IMG/VR virus record: IMGVR_UViG_3300030060_007423
Span: 96,001 to 160,000 of that record
Length of the DNA stretch: 64,000 nucleotides
Source: a virus
Reading direction: 5' to 3' (one strand)
Shown here piece by piece: positions 10,117 to 42,583 of the stretch. How positions within the stretch are numbered: the first letter of the stretch is position 1; the number at the start of each line of letters is the position of its first letter. The translations under genes were made by a program, and so were the position numbers. Below the pieces are notes generated by a model, which saw only the letters and a list, made by a program, of their open reading frames with translations, was not told the origin of the DNA and did not search any database.

Positions 10117-11456
10117 GTAAATTATTAAATGAAATTAAAAATATGATACACCAAGAATTGAATGAAATCAGAAAAGGTGATTATGTTGATTCAATGGGTG
10201 AAGTTGGATTAGTTAATAAGGTTAAAGGTCAAGTGGCATATGTTAAATTTCCATCAAAGCCAGGAAGCTTTCATCCTATATTGGCCTCATCTCTAAAAAA
10301 AGCTGGTAAACATAAAGGTAAAGACTTATATTCAGAAGGCAAATTAAATGAAAATGTTAGAATGCCAGCAAAGGATTGGATAAACATTAGATTAGTACAA
10401 ATGCTACTTAAATCTGGTGACTTAAAGAAATACAAATCAGTATTACAAAAAGCTCAAGGACAAGATGGCAAAAAAGCTATTGACATGATATATAAAAAAA
10501 TCGTATTACCTTTACATAAAGCTATGAAAATAGACCCAACTAAAGTAAAAGATTTACGAAGTTATATAGCTAAGTATGGTGAAGATAAATTTACAGATGC
10601 TTGGAATAAACTTTATAAACAGGGTGTAAGTGGAAGTTATCTCTATGCACTTGCAGGAACTATATTTCAAGGTATGGAAAGATATGATTATGTTTCAAAA
10701 CCACTTGGCTTAACAGAAGCATCTACACCATCATTACCTTCTGAAGTAAAAAGATACATGGAAAAGTTTTTATCAGCAATTAAAGGTGCAAATCTAAATC
10801 GCCAAAAACAAAAAGTTTTATTGGCTGGATTGATAGAGGCATTAGGAATAGACTCTGGTGAATTGATGATGTTAGTAAACAAAATCAAAAAAGGACTTAA
10901 GACTGAAGATAAAGAAGAACAAGATGAAGTTGGATTGCAAATGCCATTCGTAATGGTTTCTTCTGTAGATGAAGGCAAATTAAATGAAAGTATGATTGGT
11001 ATAAAAACTAAAGCAAACTTCAAACCTTTACAACTTAAAGGAGCATTGGAAAGAGCTGGAATTAAAGGTTTTCAGATGAATAGATTATCTGTGACTCTAA
11101 CAGCATTAAAATTAGATAAAAAATACTTTAAGAAAGCTAAAGAGATTGTTGATAAGTTAGGACTTTCTGTTATGATGGCAAAAGAATCTGTAAATGAAGC
11201 TACTAATCTTTGGAAACACTTCGATGCAAAGATGAAATTACAAGATACTATTATGGACCTTGAATATGATATGAAAATGATAACTAAAGATATAGCTCAA
11301 CTTCATAAAGATATGGAACAAGAGGCAGAACCAGAAGGCGGTCCTAAAGCTACTAGATATGGTAGAGACATCGAAAAGAAAGAAAAAGAATACAAAAAGA
11401 AAAAAGCTGAGTTCAAAAAACTTATGGCTAAATTGGATAGAATGGAACAATACTAA
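10113..11456 (+). CDS. Modular polyprotein with EGKLNE/ESVNE linkers
   Basis: Repeated LNE/LTE/VNE linkers separating unrelated segments. Confidence 0.65.
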   Translation: MSKLLNEIKNMIHQELNEIRKGDYVDSMGEVGLVNKVKGQVAYVKFPSKPGSFHPILASSLKKAGKHKGKDLYSEGKLNENVRMPAKDWINIRLVQMLLKSGDLKKYKSVLQKAQGQDGKKAIDMIYKKIVLPLHKAMKIDPTKVKDLRSYIAKYGEDKFTDAWNKLYKQGVSGSYLYALAGTIFQGMERYDYVSKPLGLTEASTPSLPSEVKRYMEKFLSAIKGANLNRQKQKVLLAGLIEALGIDSGELMMLVNKIKKGLKTEDKEEQDEVGLQMPFVMVSSVDEGKLNESMIGIKTKANFKPLQLKGALERAGIKGFQMNRLSVTLTALKLDKKYFKKAKEIVDKLGLSVMMAKESVNEATNLWKHFDAKMKLQDTIMDLEYDMKMITKDIAQLHKDMEQEAEPEGGPKATRYGRDIEKKEKEYKKKKAEFKKLMAKLDRMEQY

Positions 11457-22727: not shown

Positions 22728-24008
22728 ATGAAAGAATTAAAGCAGTTTATAGATGAAATGAAAAATACTTCTTCACTTAATGAAAAGAAGAAGATTATTG
22801 AAAAGTACAAAGACAATAAATTTATTATGAAGGTTATACAATATACTTATGACCCTTATAAGAAATACAATGTCACAAGTAAAAATTGTAAAAAGCTCTC
22901 TCATATTTGTGATGAAGATTGTGGATTTGTAGATTTGTTTGAATTGTTAGATGATTTAGATAATAGAACTTATACAGGACATGATGCAATTGCAATGGTT
23001 AATGGATATATCTTTCAGAATTCAGATTATGAAGATGTAATTTTTGGTATCATTGACAGAAATATTGAGATTCGTGCAAATGCCAGTGTATTCAATAAAA
23101 TAATTCCAGGACTTGTACCAACATTTGATGTTGCATTAGCAACTAAATATGAATCAAGATTTTGTGATTTTGATAATGAAGAGTGGTATGCAAGTAGAAA
23201 ACTTGACGGTGTAAGATGTATTGTTAGAAAGGATGGAGATACTATTAAAGCTTACTCACGAGCTGGTAATGAATTCACAACTTTACAAAAAGTATTGGAT
23301 GATGTAAAGTTAATGCCTGGTGATTTTGTATTAGATGGTGAGATTTGTATGATGGATGAAAATGGCAATGAAGATTTTCAAGGTATCATGAAACAAATCA
23401 AAAAGAAGAATCATACTATTGAAAATCCAAAATTTGTTATATTTGATTACTTAAGTCTTAGTGAATTTGATAATAAAACTAGCCAAATGATTTTATCAGA
23501 AAGACTTAATGAACTCAAAGGAGAAATTCCACATGATGGGTATTATGATTACTTAACTTTACTTCCTCAGCAACTTGTAAATAGTGAAGAAGAACTTTTA
23601 GAGATGACAGCTGAAGCTGAAACCAATGGTTATGAAGGAGTTATGTTAAGAAAGAATGTTGGTTATGAAGGTAAGAGAAGCAAAAATCTTTTGAAATGTA
23701 AAAAATTCCATGATGCAGAATATAAAGTTATGGGAGCTACCAATGGAGATATTAGAATTATTGAAGATGGAAAAGAAAAGACAATAAATTGTTTGAGTAT
23801 GATTACAATAAATCATAAAGGAACTCAAGTTGGTGTTGGTTCAGGATTTAATTTTGACCAAAGAAAAGAATTTGGAAAGGATCACAGTAAAATTTTAGGT
23901 AAGACAATTACCGTACAATATTTTGAAGAAAGTAAAAATCAATTTGGAGAATACTCATTGAGATTTCCAGTAATTAAACATATATTTGAAAATGGAAGAA
24001 ATGTCTAA
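22728..24008 (+). CDS. ATP-dependent DNA ligase
   Basis: KLDGVR, LDGE, FD, EGVMLR, GSG and SLRFP motifs. Confidence 0.95.
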   Translation: MKELKQFIDEMKNTSSLNEKKKIIEKYKDNKFIMKVIQYTYDPYKKYNVTSKNCKKLSHICDEDCGFVDLFELLDDLDNRTYTGHDAIAMVNGYIFQNSDYEDVIFGIIDRNIEIRANASVFNKIIPGLVPTFDVALATKYESRFCDFDNEEWYASRKLDGVRCIVRKDGDTIKAYSRAGNEFTTLQKVLDDVKLMPGDFVLDGEICMMDENGNEDFQGIMKQIKKKNHTIENPKFVIFDYLSLSEFDNKTSQMILSERLNELKGEIPHDGYYDYLTLLPQQLVNSEEELLEMTAEAETNGYEGVMLRKNVGYEGKRSKNLLKCKKFHDAEYKVMGATNGDIRIIEDGKEKTINCLSMITINHKGTQVGVGSGFNFDQRKEFGKDHSKILGKTITVQYFEESKNQFGEYSLRFPVIKHIFENGRNV

Positions 24009-28307: not shown

Positions 28308-28712
28308 ATGACAGAGAAACAACCAGACAAATTTGTAATACCAGATTGGTGTGTAGCTACATATGATTGGAATAGACTAGATATACGGATAGAATACGAG
28401 GAAGGTATGGTATATCAGTTTCATGGCGTACATCCAGATAGATGGACACAATGGAAGCAGGCTGATGATCCCCTATTCTATTATTATAGACACATCATGA
28501 CGTGTAGATGGACCTGTGAAAGCCATCCCAACTGGTCTCCTGTGTCATTACCGGTAGAAGTGGCAGGAAATGCCAGTGAATCCTCTAGTCAAAGTGATAG
28601 TGAAGCACAAGAGAATCAAATGGCTGAAAAAACTATGAGTGTGACTAGGAAGGAGCCCATTTCTGGCAGTCTGGATGATACTCATGAGCACGACACAAGT
28701 GTGGCAAAGTAA
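28308..28712 (+). CDS. KTSC-domain protein with low-complexity tail
   Basis: YD...L.IEY..G.VYQF.GV....W......YY..HI pattern. Confidence 0.55.
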   Translation: MTEKQPDKFVIPDWCVATYDWNRLDIRIEYEEGMVYQFHGVHPDRWTQWKQADDPLFYYYRHIMTCRWTCESHPNWSPVSLPVEVAGNASESSSQSDSEAQENQMAEKTMSVTRKEPISGSLDDTHEHDTSVAK

Positions 28713-28804
28713 TCGTTAGATAGACTATCCGGCATGGCTAGACTCACGATAAGAGTGATGGATGGTATGTCAGATTTGCCACTGGTCGTGCCACATTGTC
28801 ATGG

Positions 28805-28858
28805 AAAAAAGTTGTGAAAATATTTTTTTTTCCCAATTATTCTAGTTATATTTATAGT
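28805..28858 (+). promoter_or_regulatory. Early-promoter cassette, copy 3
   Basis: AAAAAAGTTGTGAAAATA...TTTCCCAA...CTAGTTATATTTATA. Confidence 0.75.
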
Positions 28859-28885
28859 ATAATAATGGTTAAAAAATATAATACT

Positions 28886-29062
28886 ATGAATGAAAAAAAT
28901 CACTTAGAAAATCTTTATGACGTTTATCTTTACTGTCCATCTATCGACTCTGCAAAGGTCTGTACTGTGGAAGCAACTCACTACACTAATGCTAAGACAA
29001 AAGCTTTGGATATGTATCCTGGTTATGTATTGCTTGAGGATCAACTGTCTACACAATGTTAA
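28886..29062 (+). CDS. Small early protein
   Basis: Start re-set to MNEKNHL after promoter. Confidence 0.55.
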   Translation: MNEKNHLENLYDVYLYCPSIDSAKVCTVEATHYTNAKTKALDMYPGYVLLEDQLSTQC

Positions 29063-29137
29063 TAACTTTGACAATATTGTTAATAACTTTACGTAAAAGT
29101 ATAGCATAAAACCCAATAAATCTAGTTATATTTATAA
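29057..29137 (+). promoter_or_regulatory. Early-promoter cassette, copy 4 (two TGTTAATAACTTT boxes)
   Basis: Boxes at 29057 and 29078; CCCAA...CTAGTTATATTTATA. Confidence 0.75.
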
Positions 29138-29187
29138 TATAATTGGTTCGGATAGAAATTAAAAATTAAAACAAAAAAACGTCGCTT

Positions 29188-30393
29188 ATGAAAAATGTAA
29201 TCTTAAAAGCTGGTCTTAACGAGAGTGGTAAACCAGTATTGACTGACAAGGTTGGCAATCAGTTTGAATGTCCTGTAAAGGATAAAGCCAACAAACAAAA
29301 ATTAACGTGGGCTGTTAAAAAAGAAGCCTATGTAAAAGTAATAATGAAGGAGGGCGGAGCCATGTCCTACTCAGTATCTAATAGTAGTACTGAAAAGGAT
29401 TGGACTAAAGATGCCACGTCTATATTGACAGACCAGTGGTTGAATAAACCTGCTGCTAATGTACCTGCTGAACAGGCTGAGGTAATGGCATTCATTCAGA
29501 AATCTCCTGAGTTAAAACCAGATACTCTTAAGATGCAAGACCTTAAATGGAAATATCTTGTTAGGTCTGCAATGAGAGGTAAAAATATTATGATGACTGG
29601 TCCTGCAGGATGTGGTAAAACTATGGCAGCTAAAACTGTTGTGAACGCATTAGACAGACCAGAATTTTATTTCAACCTTGGGGCAACTCAAGATCCTAGA
29701 GCTACCTTAATTGGTAATGTCCACTTCAATAAAGAGAGTGGTACGTTCTTCTCTGAATCAATGTTTGTGAAAGCAATACAGACTGAGAATGCTGTAATAC
29801 TCATGGATGAGCTTTCACGTGCTCACCCCGAGGCTTGGAATATATTAATGACTGTATTAGACGAAGGTCAGAGATACTTAAGGTTAGATGAAGCTGATGG
29901 CTCTCCAACTATTAAAGTAGCTCCAGGTGTAACATTTATCGCTACTGCCAATATAGGTAATGAATATACAGCGACAAGAGTTATGGACCGAGCGTTATTA
30001 GACAGGTTTATTATTGTAGAGATGGATACTCTAAATGCTTCTGAGGAGTTTGAGTTGTTAACAAAACTATTTCCTAATGTGGATACTAAAACAGTTAACG
30101 CCATATCTGAAATTGCTCATGCTACTAGAGTTGAGGTTAAGAGTGAAGTTGCGAGAATCTCTACTTCTATTTCTACCAGAGCTTGTGTTGAAATGACTAG
30201 CCTTGTTTACGACGGGTTTAGTTTAACAGAAGCTGCTGAGGTTATTATGTATCCACAATACGATGATGCGGGTGGAGCTGATAGCGAAAGAACATTCGTA
30301 AAACAACTTGTACAGAAATTCTGTGACGATGGTACCGATGAAGATTTATTCAACACTGAAGATGTTGACGGTGCTGATGACAACCAGCAATAA
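29188..30393 (+). CDS. MoxR/CbbQ/CobS-type AAA+ ATPase
   Basis: GPAGCGKT, LMDELSR, IATAN and DRALLDRF motifs. Confidence 0.92.
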   Translation: MKNVILKAGLNESGKPVLTDKVGNQFECPVKDKANKQKLTWAVKKEAYVKVIMKEGGAMSYSVSNSSTEKDWTKDATSILTDQWLNKPAANVPAEQAEVMAFIQKSPELKPDTLKMQDLKWKYLVRSAMRGKNIMMTGPAGCGKTMAAKTVVNALDRPEFYFNLGATQDPRATLIGNVHFNKESGTFFSESMFVKAIQTENAVILMDELSRAHPEAWNILMTVLDEGQRYLRLDEADGSPTIKVAPGVTFIATANIGNEYTATRVMDRALLDRFIIVEMDTLNASEEFELLTKLFPNVDTKTVNAISEIAHATRVEVKSEVARISTSISTRACVEMTSLVYDGFSLTEAAEVIMYPQYDDAGGADSERTFVKQLVQKFCDDGTDEDLFNTEDVDGADDNQQ

Positions 30394-30409
30394 GCGACGA
30401 TTGCTAAGA

Positions 30410-30445
30410 AGGGGGGTGGACATTTAGAGCCATCCCCTATTCTAT
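30410..30445 (+). terminator. GC-rich hairpin, probable terminator
   Basis: GGGGTGG/CCATCCCC stem. Confidence 0.55.
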
Positions 30446-30525
30446 TGTTAATAACTTTGTTAATAACTTTAGAAAATAACTATGAAATAATTTTTATTTC
30501 CCAACAATAATAGTTATATTTATAT
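30446..30525 (+). promoter_or_regulatory. Early-promoter cassette, copy 5 (two boxes)
   Basis: Boxes at 30446 and 30458; TTTCCCAA...TAGTTATATTTATA. Confidence 0.75.
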
Positions 30526-30557
30526 TATAAATAACGGATTAAACTAATAGAGATACT

Positions 30558-32567
30558 ATGACAAATTATTCAAGCTTTTGGTTAGATGACAATTTTGACA
30601 ATGACATTGACATTCTGACAGGTGAATCAATCGTGAAACCTGGTAAGGACCTCATCAAGCTAGCCGGTTATCAAAGAGCAATCGCTAACTTTGTTAACAT
30701 CGTAACAGGTAAACACGTTCCTGTTAAATTCAAACAAAATGGTAATAGCTATACTGATGGCAAATCTATCGTGATTAGCTCAAGTCTAAAGGACAAGGAT
30801 TTCGACCCTGCTGTTGGACTTGCTCTTCACGAAGGTAGCCACATATTGTTGTCTGACTTTCAATTCCTTAAAGACTTAGAGAGCCACATACCTGCTGACA
30901 TTACAAATACAGTAATGATTAAATATGATTATGATAGATACAACGCTAACTATCATATCTTAAATAATCTAAAAGATTTGTTAAACATTGTTGAGGACAG
31001 ACGTATTGACAACTACGTGTTTAAGTCTGCTCCTGGTTATAAAGGTTACTACCACTCAATGTATGACAAATACTTTAACTCTAAAATTATAGACAAAGGA
31101 TTGGCAAGTTCTGAATTTAGAATCCCAACCTTTGAAGCTTATATGTTCCGTATCTGTAACATTACTAATAACCATAGAGACCTCAACGCATTACCTGGTC
31201 TAAGAAAGATATGGAATCTAATGGACTTAAAGAATATCGGTGATGTAAAGAGTACTGAAGAGGCCTTTCAAATTGCTTGTGAAATATATAAAGTAATTGA
31301 AGAAAACATTGAGGCTCCTAAACCAGAGGATAATGATTGTGATGGCAATTGTGATGGTGATGGTAATGAACAACAAACTGAGAATAGAGATGGCGGTACT
31401 CCTAAAACACCAGAAGGAGAATCTGATGACGATGGTTCTACTACAACAGGTACTGATTGTACTAATGGTAATACCACATCAACTATTGACTTAGAGGATT
31501 TAACTGACAAACAAAAACAACAGTTAAAGAAAGCTATTCAAAAGCAAAAGAGTTTCCAGGATGGAGATATTAAGAAAGGCGGAATGAGTAAGAAAGATGC
31601 TAGTTCATTAAATGCTATTCAGCAAGGAGATGTTGAGGTTACTAATGTTGGTAATGGAGTAGACGGATGGAGAAAGACTAGTGGTGGTACTAACTGTATT
31701 GTTATTAATGGTATTACTAAAACATTGATTGATGAGAATCCATTTGACGTGTTTATCAACAAAGACTGGTATGGTAGTAGAATGGAGCAGTTTCAACACT
31801 CTGTAGACAAAGGACTTGTATTAGGACAAAAACTTGGTAGAAAGTTACAGGTTAGAAACGAGGAGAACAGCCTTAGATACACACGATTGAATACAGGAAA
31901 GATAGATAAAAGATTGATTGCTAGTTTAGGCTATGGTGCTGAGAGTGTATTTGAACAAGTATTTACTAGCAGCCATAACGATGCCAACGTACATATCTCA
32001 GTAGATGCTAGTGGTAGTATGAGTGGCCGTAGATATAACAAGGCTATGACTACCTGCGTGGCTATAGCTAAAGCAGCCAGCATGGTTGGTAATCTAAACG
32101 TTCAGATAAGCTTCCGTACTACAGTGGAAAGTGGTGGCACTAACACACCATGTATAGTGATAGCGTATGACTCTAGAAAAGACAAGATCGTAACGATTAA
32201 ATCACTATTCAAATACTGTGTAACTCTAGGGACAACACCAGAAGGACTATGTTTCGAGGCCATTCAAAAACACATGGTACAGAGCAATGGTAGTATGGAT
32301 AGCTACTTTATAAACCTCTCAGATGGAGAACCTTATTTTGAGAACCGAGATATTCAATATTGGGGCCAGACAGCTGCTAGCCATACCGCAAAACAAGTGA
32401 AAAACATGCGTGGTGGTGGTATAGAGGTACTGAGCTACTATATAGATGGTGGTAGCGACGTTAGTGCCCAATTTAAGACTATGTATGGTGCCTCTAGCGC
32501 TAGTATAGATACAAACAACCTTACCCAACTGGCCACTACTCTAAATAAATTATTCCTTGGCCAGTAG
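30558..32567 (+). CDS. CobT-like vWA (MIDAS) protein with N-terminal HExxH domain; partner of the MoxR ATPase
   Basis: LHEGSH, NIVEDRRI, DASGSMS, TPEG and LSDG motifs. Confidence 0.88.
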   Translation: MTNYSSFWLDDNFDNDIDILTGESIVKPGKDLIKLAGYQRAIANFVNIVTGKHVPVKFKQNGNSYTDGKSIVISSSLKDKDFDPAVGLALHEGSHILLSDFQFLKDLESHIPADITNTVMIKYDYDRYNANYHILNNLKDLLNIVEDRRIDNYVFKSAPGYKGYYHSMYDKYFNSKIIDKGLASSEFRIPTFEAYMFRICNITNNHRDLNALPGLRKIWNLMDLKNIGDVKSTEEAFQIACEIYKVIEENIEAPKPEDNDCDGNCDGDGNEQQTENRDGGTPKTPEGESDDDGSTTTGTDCTNGNTTSTIDLEDLTDKQKQQLKKAIQKQKSFQDGDIKKGGMSKKDASSLNAIQQGDVEVTNVGNGVDGWRKTSGGTNCIVINGITKTLIDENPFDVFINKDWYGSRMEQFQHSVDKGLVLGQKLGRKLQVRNEENSLRYTRLNTGKIDKRLIASLGYGAESVFEQVFTSSHNDANVHISVDASGSMSGRRYNKAMTTCVAIAKAASMVGNLNVQISFRTTVESGGTNTPCIVIAYDSRKDKIVTIKSLFKYCVTLGTTPEGLCFEAIQKHMVQSNGSMDSYFINLSDGEPYFENRDIQYWGQTAASHTAKQVKNMRGGGIEVLSYYIDGGSDVSAQFKTMYGASSASIDTNNLTQLATTLNKLFLGQ

Positions 32568-39643: not shown

Positions 39644-40387
39644 ATGAGCATAGAAACAAAATATTTTTCAATTGACGATTTATATAACGTAGATAACAAA
39701 TCTTCGTTTTGGAAATTTATAGAGGGCGAAGTAAAAGTTGCTTTAAGTAAATCTTCAATGTCAAGTTCAAAAAAAGCAGATGCTCTTAATCTATTTAAGA
39801 AACAATATATTAAAAAGTTTTTTATAAGACATACTAAATCACCAAGTGATTATAATAAACCTTGGGATTTAGATAAATATGACCTAGAGTCAATTAAAAA
39901 TAATACAGATGGTCAATGGGCACCACCACCTAATGCTGATGACTATAGGTTTGATTTAGAAAATGCTCAATATGTAATTGAAAAATTTATATGGATGCAA
40001 ATACACCCAGATGATAGAAGGGATTTATTTGATAATGATATTGATAAATTTGATGACTGGGTTGTAACATTATCTGAATCACAAATAGATGAAGTTGTAC
40101 AAAAAATTCAAAATGGTGAAAGACTAGGTGATCTTGATTATGAAAGTATAAAGGATTCACTATATGAACTTGATGATGGTACAATCAGAGTATTTAAGAT
40201 AGACGGATTAATGATTATGTCTTCACTAAATAAAGATTCGCTGGAAACAGCATGCGTAAAAATCTTTATGAAGAAAGGTATAACATTTAAGTATAGAACA
40301 ACTGAAAACTATAAAGGAAAAACTGTACACTCCTATATATTTAGGATTGACGGACGTAATGACAATAAAAATGACAATATGTCATAG
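39644..40387 (+). CDS. Hypothetical protein
   Basis: 247-aa ORF. Confidence 0.65.
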   Translation: MSIETKYFSIDDLYNVDNKSSFWKFIEGEVKVALSKSSMSSSKKADALNLFKKQYIKKFFIRHTKSPSDYNKPWDLDKYDLESIKNNTDGQWAPPPNADDYRFDLENAQYVIEKFIWMQIHPDDRRDLFDNDIDKFDDWVVTLSESQIDEVVQKIQNGERLGDLDYESIKDSLYELDDGTIRVFKIDGLMIMSSLNKDSLETACVKIFMKKGITFKYRTTENYKGKTVHSYIFRIDGRNDNKNDNMS

Positions 40388-41404: not shown

Positions 41405-42583
41405 ATGAAGGCTAGAATATTTCCATTTATTATTGCATTGGCTGCTTTGGCAGTGTCAGGCTCAGCGGCGTTTTACTCAGTCTTTGGATTGAGTAAATTG
41501 TTTGCAGGTGCTAGTACACAAGTTATAATAATGGCTGGTAGTCTTGAATTTGCCAAACTAGTTTGTGCTTCACTATTATATCAATATTGGGGTATTATAA
41601 ATAAGTGGTTACGATTTTACTTATCTGTAGCAGTATTTGTTTTAATGGTTATAACTAGTGGTGGTATTTACGGATTCTTATCAGGAGCATACCAAGAAAC
41701 GGCAACCAAGTCAGAATTCCTAGATAAGTCATTAGCTGTATTGCAAACTAAACAGGAAAGGTTTGAAGAACAAAAGACAGACCTTACTCTAGAAAAGACA
41801 CAACTAAATACAACCATTTCTGATTTAAGAACATCATTATCAAATCCAACATCAGTATCATATTGGGATGAAAATTCTCAATCAGTAATTACAACAACAT
41901 CTAGTTCTACTAGGAGAGCATTACAATCAGAATTAAAAACCACAATTGAAGATAGAGATAATATAAATCTAAAATTGGAAGCTGTAATGGATTCAGTAAT
42001 GAGAATTGATACAGAACTATTAGATTTAGAAATTGGTAATGAAGAACAAAGAGAACTAGGACCACTTAAATACCTATCAGAAACTACAGGGAAAGAAATG
42101 GGACAAGTTGTTAATTGGTTTCTACTTTTAATAATATTTGTATTTGACCCATTAGCAATTGCAATGGTTGTTGCAGCTAACTTTGCATTTGCACAAGTAA
42201 AAAAACCTAAACTAGTAGAAGATGACGGTGATGAGGTTGTTGAGGTTGAACCAACACTATTCAAAGATGAAGTTGTATGTGATAAACCACCAGGGTTAGA
42301 ATATGATACACCATATACGTTAGATGAAATAAAAGAAAAGTGGGAAGCAGCAGAAAAGGAAGAAGTTCAGAAAGAAGAAACTGTTGAAATACCTGTTAGT
42401 GAAATAAAGAGATGGCGTGAAGATGGTACTGATAACCTTTATGGTGAAGACACAATATCAGACAAGAGACTAATAGAACTATCTCATGCAAACGATATAG
42501 ACACTGATGAAATTATCAGATTATTAAATGAAGGCGAAAGAGCCACAGTTATAAATTTATTAAAACAAAAAGGACGGTTATGA
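41405..42583 (+). CDS. Multi-TM coiled-coil membrane protein
   Basis: FYSVFGL, LEFAKL, GIYGFLS, ELGPLKY and IFVFDPLA segments. Confidence 0.7.
   Translation: MKARIFPFIIALAALAVSGSAAFYSVFGLSKLFAGASTQVIIMAGSLEFAKLVCASLLYQYWGIINKWLRFYLSVAVFVLMVITSGGIYGFLSGAYQETATKSEFLDKSLAVLQTKQERFEEQKTDLTLEKTQLNTTISDLRTSLSNPTSVSYWDENSQSVITTTSSSTRRALQSELKTTIEDRDNINLKLEAVMDSVMRIDTELLDLEIGNEEQRELGPLKYLSETTGKEMGQVVNWFLLLIIFVFDPLAIAMVVAANFAFAQVKKPKLVEDDGDEVVEVEPTLFKDEVVCDKPPGLEYDTPYTLDEIKEKWEAAEKEEVQKEETVEIPVSEIKRWREDGTDNLYGEDTISDKRLIELSHANDIDTDEIIRLLNEGERATVINLLKQKGRL

What the first reader, a model, noticed from the sequence alone, without database searches (positions are those of the whole stretch)
29180..30399. 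Gene enclosed by inverted repeats (2): MoxR ATPase start codon pairs with its own stop codon
Seen: CGTCGCTTAT (29180-29189, including the AT of ATG) is the perfect reverse complement of ATAAGCGACG (30390-30399, including the TAA stop). This is a GC-rich 10-mer in AT-rich flanks. Inference: a long-range helix could occlude initiation once the full mRNA is made and be opened by terminating ribosomes, giving feedback or re-initiation coupling on a 1.2-kb loop.
Basis: partly seen in the sequence, partly recalled or inferred. Interest (0 to 1): 0.8.

Follow-up and report, generated by a model that had tools for sequence, protein, structure and literature searches.

The report
Start-to-stop pairing closes phage mRNA
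The start-codon region of a marine phage's CobS/MoxR-like ATPase gene is complementary to the sequence at its own stop codon, and about half of 127 related phage loci keep such a pairing with quite different sequences, so it is most likely a selected RNA fold that hides the start codon once the transcript is finished.

Summary

Within this genome alone it is not significant. A start/stop match of 10 nt or more is expected in about 0.7 of 187 ORFs.

Comparison settles it. In 127 distinct homologous viral and metagenomic loci, the true post-stop segment is among the best 1% of partners for the start region in 53%. For neighbouring genes the figure is 1-7%. At least 14 unrelated arm sequences occur. 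The closest relative (97% aa) carries a compensatory C:G to A:T change.

The 3' arm always lies between the stop codon and a terminator-like hairpin. Folding models raise the cost of opening the start region by 2.6-7.4 kcal/mol once the last ~67 nt are added, against about 0 in three control genes.

Best reading: a cis 5'-3' closing helix, of the icaR/hok fold-back kind, that limits translation of finished transcripts and must be melted by terminating ribosomes. The translational effect is inferred, not shown.

About half of the lineages lack the helix. Another first-stage note (e1-5731224) saw the same thing on other DNA.

The parts
29057..29143 (+). Promoter-like cassette upstream of the gene: two TGTTAATAACTTT boxes and a CCCAAT...TATAAT block. 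It is the predicted start of a monocistronic transcript.
   Evidence: Repeat families D1 and D12 have copies at 28832, 29112 and 30500. The block is conserved in L001 while the leader downstream of it diverges. It is predicted only; no RNA data.
29180..29189 (+). 5' arm of the closing helix, covering -8 to +2 relative to the A of the ATG. This gene has no Shine-Dalgarno sequence.
   Evidence: It is paired in the MFE and centroid folds of the full transcript. It is unchanged in contigs from 4 studies while 29167-29174 vary. Close relatives show C..G or A..T haplotypes only.
29188..30393 (+). CDS of a 401-aa MoxR/CobS-like AAA+ ATPase.
   Evidence: Pfam AAA_5 1.9e-18 and bpMoxR; phrog_249; 8000 or more homologues, mostly unnamed or called 'MoxR-like ATPase'.
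30390..30399 (+). 3' arm of the closing helix: the last base of the final sense codon, the TAA stop codon and 6 nt of 3' UTR.
   Evidence: The A of the ATG pairs with the T of the TAA.
30386..30405 (+). Small local hairpin (6-bp stem) that shows the core of the 3' arm in its loop. It is mutually exclusive with the full long-range helix.
   Evidence: Equivalent hairpins with different stem sequences occur in L001 and in many other lineages.
30407..30449 (+). Terminator-like G+C-rich hairpin (30407-30443) with a U-rich tail. It is the predicted 3' end of the transcript.
   Evidence: -23 kcal/mol for 30385-30460, z -2.9. The consensus scan missed it because its loop exceeds 8 nt. Nearly all homologous loci have a comparable hairpin and T-run 15-40 nt after the stop codon.

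Best explanation
The two 10-mers are the arms of a long-range RNA helix that closes a roughly 1.3-kb monocistronic mRNA, running from the predicted promoter at about 29143 to the terminator at about 30445. The helix pairs the translation-initiation region with the stop codon and the first bases of the 3' UTR, just upstream of the terminator.

While the gene is being transcribed the start region is free, so ribosomes can load. Once the last ~60 nt are made, the 3' arm can fold back onto the start codon and block further initiation. Because the arm includes the stop codon, every terminating ribosome must melt the helix and briefly re-expose the start codon.

The net effect proposed is a self-limiting, use-dependent translation of each transcript of this ATPase.

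Shown: the complementarity, its specificity to this gene, and its maintenance by covariation. Modelled: loss of start-site accessibility in the full-length RNA. Inferred: that both arms lie on one transcript, that the helix forms in vivo, and that it lowers translation.
For: (1) The complement is exact at the stated coordinates.

(2) Among 67 distinct IMG/VR loci, the true post-stop window is in the top 1% of partners of the start window in 63% (median z -3.2). The figure is 0.9% for 106 downstream and 7% for 99 upstream neighbour ORFs. This was replicated on 59 new metagenome loci at 44%. Overall 67 of 127 loci pass, with at least 14 unrelated arm groups, spread over all major clades of the protein tree.

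(3) Close relatives carry either C..G (window, L175-177, L179-181) or A..T (L001, L169-174) at the outermost pair, and no mixed type was seen. The next outgroups have different arms: L165/L178 with 8 bp and L168 with 11 bp.

(4) Geometry: at least 2 nt of the ATG are paired in 34 of 41 lineages. The 3' arm starts at a median of 0 nt from the stop codon, range -9 to +13, and precedes a terminator hairpin.

(5) The MFE and centroid folds of the full transcript contain the helix.

(6) The ensemble cost of opening -12..+6 rises from the nascent to the full-length RNA by 3.9 kcal/mol (window), 2.6, 5.3, 7.4 and 4.1 in four relatives. In three control genes it changes by -0.7, +0.1 and 0.0.

(7) Both arms are unchanged in contigs from 4 studies, while adjacent leader positions vary.
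Against: There is no RNA evidence at all. Transcript ends, pairing in vivo and any effect on translation are untested.

The helix here is only 10 bp across a 1.2-kb loop, and ribosome traffic would oppose it.

Within this genome alone the match is within chance expectation.

About 47% of lineages lack a strong helix, including L166/L167 at 76% aa identity, and mis-called start codons do not explain this. Contig L164 keeps the window's 3' arm but has an unrelated 5' part and no pairing. So the helix is dispensable, or L164 is a chimeric assembly (2x coverage).

The helices are almost purely Watson-Crick, so a G-U strand-asymmetry test could not show that the sense RNA is the folding strand.

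The model already gives the nascent start region a 4.2 kcal/mol opening cost.
Confidence: 0.6

Rival explanations
1. The pairing acts in trans. The 3' arm plus the terminator hairpin is released or processed as a short sRNA of about 55 nt derived from the 3' UTR. This sRNA binds the start region of other copies of the same mRNA, giving negative autoregulation of the OppZ/CarZ type.
For: The layout of seed followed directly by an intrinsic terminator is that of an sRNA. The arm core sits in a hairpin loop in many lineages, as in antisense RNAs. The same base pairs explain all the covariation. For icaR the cis-or-trans question also remained open (PMC3868564).
Against: The seed overlaps the stop codon, and in several lineages the last sense codons, so release would need cleavage inside the CDS. 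No other start region in the genome is a target. An intramolecular partner is favoured at low concentration. There is no evidence for a small RNA.
Confidence: 0.15
2. The helix mainly controls mRNA stability or processing, not initiation. Either it protects the ends from RNases, as in B. subtilis hbs, or it creates a double-stranded RNase III site, as in icaR.
For: The known 5'-3' UTR pairings have such effects (review PMC7821165; PMC3868564). In some lineages the helix reaches about 25 bp and -25 to -34 kcal/mol, e.g. L059, L044 and L050, which is long enough for RNase III.
Against: The 5' arm tracks the ATG or Shine-Dalgarno sequence, not the predicted 5' end of the RNA, in all 41 lineages. 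The 10-bp helix here is shorter than usual RNase III substrates (general knowledge). A stability role could also coexist with occlusion.
Confidence: 0.15
3. In this genome the match is a coincidence or a relic with no present function.
For: 0.73 such genes are expected per genome against 1 observed. Half of the lineages do without it.
Against: It occurs in the same gene as in dozens of other lineages. It carries a compensatory change in the nearest relative, with no mixed haplotypes. The arms are invariant while neighbouring positions vary.
Confidence: 0.04
4. It is a DNA-level inverted repeat: the boundary of a mobile cassette, an inversion site or a recombination site.
For: The helices are Watson-Crick and strand-symmetric. 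The gene's N-terminal part and leader are swapped between lineages (L164).
Against: Recombinase or transposase sites keep their sequence. Here only the complementarity is kept, while the sequence differs between clades. The arms are tied to the start codon and the stop codon, not to the boundaries of homology. Arms of 8-14 bp lying 1.2 kb apart are too short for homologous exchange.
Confidence: 0.02

Closest known systems
icaR mRNA of Staphylococcus aureus (3' UTR anti-SD motif pairs with its own ribosome-binding site; PMC3868564)
   Same: A short segment downstream of the stop codon is complementary to the translation-initiation region of the same mRNA. In some relatives here (L005, L011, L134) the 5' arm is the Shine-Dalgarno sequence itself. 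In icaR the effect is blocked initiation.
   Different: In icaR the 3' UTR is long (about 390 nt) and the motif is far from the stop codon; here the arm includes or touches the stop codon. icaR's pairing is an RNase III substrate; this 10-bp helix is probably too short. icaR rests on experiments in one genus. This case rests on covariation across more than 60 phage lineages, with no experiment.
hok mRNA fold-back inhibition (fbi/tac) and related type I toxin mRNAs
   Same: The 5' and 3' ends of the full-length mRNA pair and lock it in a translationally inert form.
   Different: hok also blocks co-transcriptional translation through metastable 5' hairpins, and is activated by 3' trimming. Here the leader is predicted to be open and the arm lies upstream of a terminator hairpin that would block trimming. 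The product is a 401-aa ATPase, not a small toxin, and there is no antisense RNA.
OppZ/CarZ autoregulatory 3' UTR-derived sRNAs of Vibrio cholerae (cited in PMC7821165)
   Same: A sequence at the 3' end of a transcript, followed by its terminator, pairs with a start region in the same transcription unit and gives 1:1 negative feedback.
   Different: Those act in trans after RNase E processing and trigger Rho termination. Here no processing site or small RNA is known, and the seed overlaps the stop codon.
MS2 coat-replicase long-distance interaction (Berkhout and van Duin 1985, listed in PMC9894550)
   Same: A start codon is hidden by a long-range helix that is opened only when ribosomes translate through the partner strand.
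   Different: In MS2 the partner lies inside another gene, so it couples two genes. Here the partner is the gene's own stop region, so the gene would be coupled to itself.
hbs mRNA of Bacillus subtilis and RNAIII/hld of S. aureus (5'/3' UTR pairing; PMC5737220, PMC7821165)
   Same: A short (14-nt or 7-nt) pairing between the 5' and 3' UTR of one mRNA, tied to translation or its timing.
   Different: hbs pairing protects an RNase Y site rather than covering the start codon. In RNAIII the role in delaying hld translation was never proven by mutation.

Membership tests
mRNAs with 5'-3' (initiation region to 3' UTR) self-pairing (icaR / hbs / RNAIII type) | Complementarity between the initiation region and the segment downstream of the stop codon of the same gene | tested here: met
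   10 of 10 perfect; best partner of 987 windows; present in the MFE and centroid folds
mRNAs with 5'-3' (initiation region to 3' UTR) self-pairing (icaR / hbs / RNAIII type) | Both arms lie on one transcript | tested here: inconclusive
   A promoter-like cassette lies upstream and a terminator-like hairpin downstream. There are no RNA ends; only contigs could be laid.
mRNAs with 5'-3' (initiation region to 3' UTR) self-pairing (icaR / hbs / RNAIII type) | Pairing maintained by selection (covariation) | tested here: met
   53% of 127 loci against 1-7% of neighbour genes; at least 14 unrelated arm groups; C:G to A:T in the nearest relative
mRNAs with 5'-3' (initiation region to 3' UTR) self-pairing (icaR / hbs / RNAIII type) | Pairing changes translation or stability, shown by disruptive and compensatory mutants | not testable with these tools
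   Only a thermodynamic model is available: the opening cost rises by 2.6-7.4 kcal/mol in the full-length RNA, against about 0 in controls
hok-type fold-back inhibition | Metastable 5' structures that prevent co-transcriptional translation | tested here: not met
   The leader and first codons are predicted unpaired apart from the long-range helix. This is a prediction only.
hok-type fold-back inhibition | Small toxin ORF with a cis-encoded antisense RNA, activated by 3' trimming | tested here: not met
   The product is a 401-aa AAA+ ATPase. Nearly all genes lie on one strand. A terminator hairpin lies 3' of the arm.
Autoregulatory 3' UTR-derived sRNA (OppZ/CarZ type) | A seed complementary to a start region of its own operon, followed by an intrinsic terminator | tested here: met
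Autoregulatory 3' UTR-derived sRNA (OppZ/CarZ type) | A stable processed small RNA acting in trans | not testable with these tools
   No raw RNA reads were available. No further start-region targets were found in the genome.
MoxR/CobS-like AAA+ ATPase (protein) | AAA_5-type P-loop domain; pairing with a VWA-domain partner gene | tested here: met
   AAA_5 1.9e-18, bpMoxR 1.9e-7, weak CbbQ_C; phrog_249 2.6e-32. The next gene, 30558-32567, has weak CobT-type VWA hits.
True cobaltochelatase CobS | Match to a curated CobS equivalog above its cut-off | tested here: not met
   NCBIfam gives no CobS hit. The best hit is GvpN at 70.6 bits, below its cut-off of 266.8. 'CobS-like' is only the PHROG label.
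Rfam families | Match to any curated RNA family | tested here: not met
   No match with E up to 1 in 28500-31000

The most novel reading that the evidence does not exclude
A prokaryotic 'closed-loop' mRNA. The helix sets the stop codon and the start codon side by side, so that a terminating ribosome, which must melt the helix, exposes the start codon right next to itself and re-initiates on the same mRNA. Translation of this SD-less gene would then be self-sustaining while ribosomes flow, and would shut off for good once they stop. That makes it a per-transcript timer or bistable switch, used by a large family of marine phages for the CobS-like gene and, in one clade, also for its CobT-like partner.
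Probability: 0.15. Interest if true: 0.9.

Novelty: new variant of a known kind. Interest (0 to 1): 0.72.

Why it matters
Self-pairing between the 5' and 3' ends of bacterial mRNAs is known from only a handful of cases found one at a time (icaR, hbs, RNAIII, hok). I found no phage example and no Rfam family.

Here a whole gene family in abundant, uncultured marine and freshwater phages keeps a start-to-stop helix through many sequence replacements. That is the kind of evidence that normally defines a functional RNA structure.

It offers dozens of natural variants for testing three questions: whether a finished bacterial mRNA can switch itself off, whether terminating ribosomes can re-open their own start site, and why a MoxR/CobS-type ATPase needs such tight dosing.

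It also shows that scans restricted to local structure miss regulatory helices spanning a whole gene.

Tried and rejected
- **Megablast against cultured phages:** no match.
- **Best cultured or named relatives:** Microcystis phage Mel-JY01 (53%), LR756508 and Bacteroides phage BS162P1 lack the pairing. No isolate is at hand.
- **Consensus terminator scan:** found nothing. Folding did find the hairpin.
- **Strand asymmetry (G-U against A-C, sense against antisense energy):** an apparent bias vanished under a strand-symmetric selection of loci, so the test is uninformative.
- **Compensatory changes counted on MAFFT-aligned windows:** unreliable because of indels. Replaced by an ATG-anchored count: 123 pairs the same, 48 changed on both sides, 8 changed on one side, over 15 sister pairs. 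Some of the two-sided changes are register shifts.
- **Mis-called start codons as the reason for negative loci:** not supported.
- **Other start-region targets of the 3' arm in the genome:** none.
- **Rfam:** none.
- **Full base-pair probability matrices for ten transcripts:** timed out. Replaced by constrained ensemble energies.
- **Sequencing runs:** only contigs were available.
- **The window's own CobT-like gene:** has no start-stop helix.
- **Literature searches for a phage precedent:** found none.

Full report
**Observation.** The sequence is as described. The 10-mer at 29180-29189 ends with the AT of the ATG at 29188. Its perfect reverse complement at 30390-30399 begins with the last base of the final sense codon, then holds the TAA (30391-30393) and six bases of 3' UTR. 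In the helix the A of the ATG pairs with the T of the TAA. The 10-mer occurs nowhere else in the window. The enclosed ORF (401 aa) is a MoxR-class AAA+ ATPase (AAA_5 E 1.9e-18) of the phage family labelled 'porphyrin biosynthesis'/CobS-like (phrog_249). It does not reach any curated CobS model. The next gene (30558-32567) is a weak CobT-type VWA protein.

The window lies in a 170.8-kb single-contig genome from a marine metagenome. The genome has 33% G+C and nearly all genes on one strand, with myovirus-type baseplate genes.

**Chance within this genome.** On its own the match is not remarkable.
- The window holds 344 perfect 10-mer inverted pairs within 2 kb.
- When start windows (-25..+10) are paired with the stop windows of other genes, 0.39% reach 10 nt. 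That gives 0.73 genes expected among 187, against one observed.
- With an energy measure this gene ranks first of 199 ORFs (z -3.3), but there is no genome-wide excess.

Whatever this is, it is a property of this gene and not of the genome.

**Comparative evidence.** This decides the matter. For 80 IMG/VR loci encoding homologues (53-97% aa identity), I compared the start window (-30..+15) with the post-stop window (-10..+40). As controls I used every other 50-nt window of the same locus.
- The window's own pair is the best of 987 (-15.8 kcal/mol), and about 30 loci also rank first.
- After removing duplicates, the true 3' window lies in the top 1% in 63% of 67 loci (median z -3.2). For downstream neighbour ORFs the figure is 0.9% of 106, and for upstream ones 7% of 99.
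- A second, independent set of 59 new metagenome loci gave 44%.
- In all, 67 of 127 distinct loci pass. Their perfect cores have a median of 10 nt (range 6-14) and fall into at least 14 groups that share no 6-mer.
- On the protein tree the pairing occurs in every major clade, with a different arm sequence in each, and is absent from some subclades.

The sequences differ while the complementarity stays, and it stays only for this gene. That is the signature of selection on base pairing.

**Close relatives of this particular helix.**
- The nearest relative (L001, 97% aa, 85% nt over 6.4 kb) has A instead of C at 29180 and T instead of G at 30399. This is a compensatory C:G to A:T change, with the other nine pairs unchanged. 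The leader just upstream and the terminator just downstream are heavily diverged.
- Among contigs of close relatives from many samples, the C..G type (window, L175-177, L179-181) and the A..T type (L001, L169-174) occur. The A..T protein variant was read on 24 contigs. I saw no mixed type.
- Contigs from four studies laid on the region show variants at 29167-29174 and at 30411, next to the arms, but list none within them. At 1-2% divergence this is weak evidence.
- The next outgroups have other arms: L165/L178 (77% aa, 8 bp overlapping the stop codon) and L168 (67%, 11 bp). L166/L167 (76%) have none.
- Contig L164 is mosaic. It is 84-99% identical to the window from 29568 onward, including the 3' arm, but its first ~500 nt are unrelated and the pairing is lost. 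It is a 2x-coverage contig, so it could be a natural recombinant or an assembly chimera.

**Anatomy.**
- In all 41 distinct well-supported lineages the 5' arm overlaps the initiation region. At least two bases of the ATG are paired in 34 of them. In some SD-bearing relatives the arm is the Shine-Dalgarno sequence.
- The first paired base of the 3' arm lies at a median of 0 nt from the end of the stop codon (range -9 to +13). The base that pairs with the A of the ATG lies within -5 to +25 of the stop codon.
- Nearly every locus has a G+C-rich hairpin with a T-run 15-40 nt after the stop codon. The arm fills the space between stop codon and terminator. In the window the hairpin is 30407-30443, followed by a U-rich tail.
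- Upstream lies a promoter-like cassette that recurs before neighbouring genes and is conserved in L001. The gene therefore looks like a monocistronic unit.
- A small local hairpin (30386-30405) shows the core of the 3' arm in its loop. Equivalent hairpins with other stem sequences occur in L001 and many other lineages. A local fold and the long-range helix may therefore be alternatives.
- This genome uses Shine-Dalgarno sequences (44% of ORFs against a 9% background), but this gene has none.

**Modelling.** The MFE and centroid folds of the predicted transcript 29150-30445 both contain the closing helix. I computed the ensemble free-energy cost of keeping -12..+6 unpaired for the transcript lacking its last ~67 nt and for the full-length RNA.

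| Transcript | Without last ~67 nt (kcal/mol) | Full length (kcal/mol) | Change |
|---|---|---|---|
| Window | 4.2 | 8.1 | +3.9 |
| L001 | 5.8 | 8.4 | +2.6 |
| L014 | 1.5 | 6.8 | +5.3 |
| L049 | 3.2 | 10.6 | +7.4 |
| L070 | 4.4 | 8.5 | +4.1 |
| Control gene at 22728 | 1.95 | 1.22 | -0.7 |
| Control gene at 41405 | 3.93 | 4.02 | +0.1 |
| Control gene at 11456 | 4.14 | 4.13 | 0.0 |

The three control genes are from the window and of similar length.

**Mechanism.** A local hairpin would be a far cheaper way to hide a start codon. Using the very end of the gene as the partner implies that initiation is being tied to completion of the transcript, or to the arrival of ribosomes at the stop codon.

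I therefore favour a cis closing helix. Nascent RNA is open and translated. The finished RNA can fold back and stop further loading. Each terminating ribosome must melt the helix, because the stop codon is in or next to it, and so briefly re-exposes the start codon. The expected outcome is a limited, use-dependent output per transcript.

What is shown is the conserved, gene-specific complementarity. What is modelled is the loss of accessibility. What is inferred is co-transcription of both arms, folding in vivo and the effect on translation. Why this ATPase needs such control is unknown.

**Rivals.**
- The same pairs could act in trans if the arm plus terminator is released as a small RNA (OppZ/CarZ type).
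- The helix could chiefly affect mRNA stability or RNase III processing (hbs, icaR). In some lineages it reaches about 25 bp and -25 to -34 kcal/mol.
- A DNA-level repeat does not explain complementarity kept with changing sequence.
- Pure chance is excluded for the family, though not formally for this one genome.

A strand-asymmetry test could not separate sense RNA from other strands, because the helices are almost entirely Watson-Crick.

**Comparison with known systems.** The class is known: 3' UTRs that pair with the 5' region of their own mRNA, namely icaR, hbs and RNAIII (review PMC7821165; icaR paper PMC3868564). So are hok fold-back inhibition and the MS2 long-distance interaction that ribosomes open.

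This case differs in four ways. It sits in phage genes. The stop codon is placed inside or next to the helix with the start codon. The 3' UTR is minimal. The support comes from extensive natural covariation and not from experiment. There is no Rfam match, and I found no report of it.

Another first-stage note of this scan (e1-5731224) described the same idea on another genome. Its arms are those of my L070/L071 group, which rank 0-2 of about 940.

**Limits.** About half of the lineages lack a strong helix. There is no RNA data. The helix here is short. The mosaic contig L164 shows that the gene can exist without it, if that contig is real.

**Verdict.** The mechanism is probably translational self-limitation in cis, at moderate confidence. 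It is a new variant of a known kind.

Noticed in passing
L037:270-2549, L048:292-2517, L062:153-2432, L064:152-2365: In one clade the CobT-like VWA gene (737-759 aa) lies upstream of the ATPase gene and has its own start-stop helix of 12-15 bp, -20 to -22 kcal/mol, z about -3. The window's own CobT-like gene (30558-32567) has none.
   Followed up: partly
L072:1632-2114, L036:1107-1526, L052:543-1292: Unrelated small genes next to the ATPase gene in three loci also show strong start-stop complementarity, up to about 18 bp and -23 kcal/mol in L072. Upstream neighbours as a class were slightly enriched, at 7% in the top 1%.
   Followed up: no
L007, L008, L019-L021 (just after the ATPase stop codon): In this subclade a local 9-bp hairpin encloses the stop codon instead of, or besides, the long-range helix.
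   Followed up: no
L164:1-1730: A 2x-coverage contig is mosaic. Its 3' two-thirds are 84-99% identical to the window, including the 3' arm and terminator. Its leader and first ~125 codons are unrelated, and the pairing is lost. The N-terminal ~90 residues are the variable part of this protein family in general.
   Followed up: partly
L001:4170-4215 against window 30370-30400: In the nearest relative the last sense codon CAA is TAA, giving tandem stop codons, and three extra codons lie upstream. The 3' arm is untouched.
   Followed up: yes
window 28805-28863, 29057-29143, 30446-30531: A repeated promoter-like cassette (TGTTAATAACTTT boxes plus a CCCAAT...TATAAT block) precedes successive genes and is conserved in L001. 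Earlier notes of the scan describe it too.
   Followed up: partly
whole genome G000: 44% of 199 ORFs have a GGAG/GAGG/AGGA core at -20..-5 against a 9% background, with G enriched at -12..-8.
   Followed up: partly
window 39644-40387; genome 71128-71886: These two other ORFs have the next-best start/stop duplex scores in the genome: -21.6 kcal/mol with rank 2 of 150, and -16.8 with rank 0 of 150. I did not check them in relatives.
   Followed up: no
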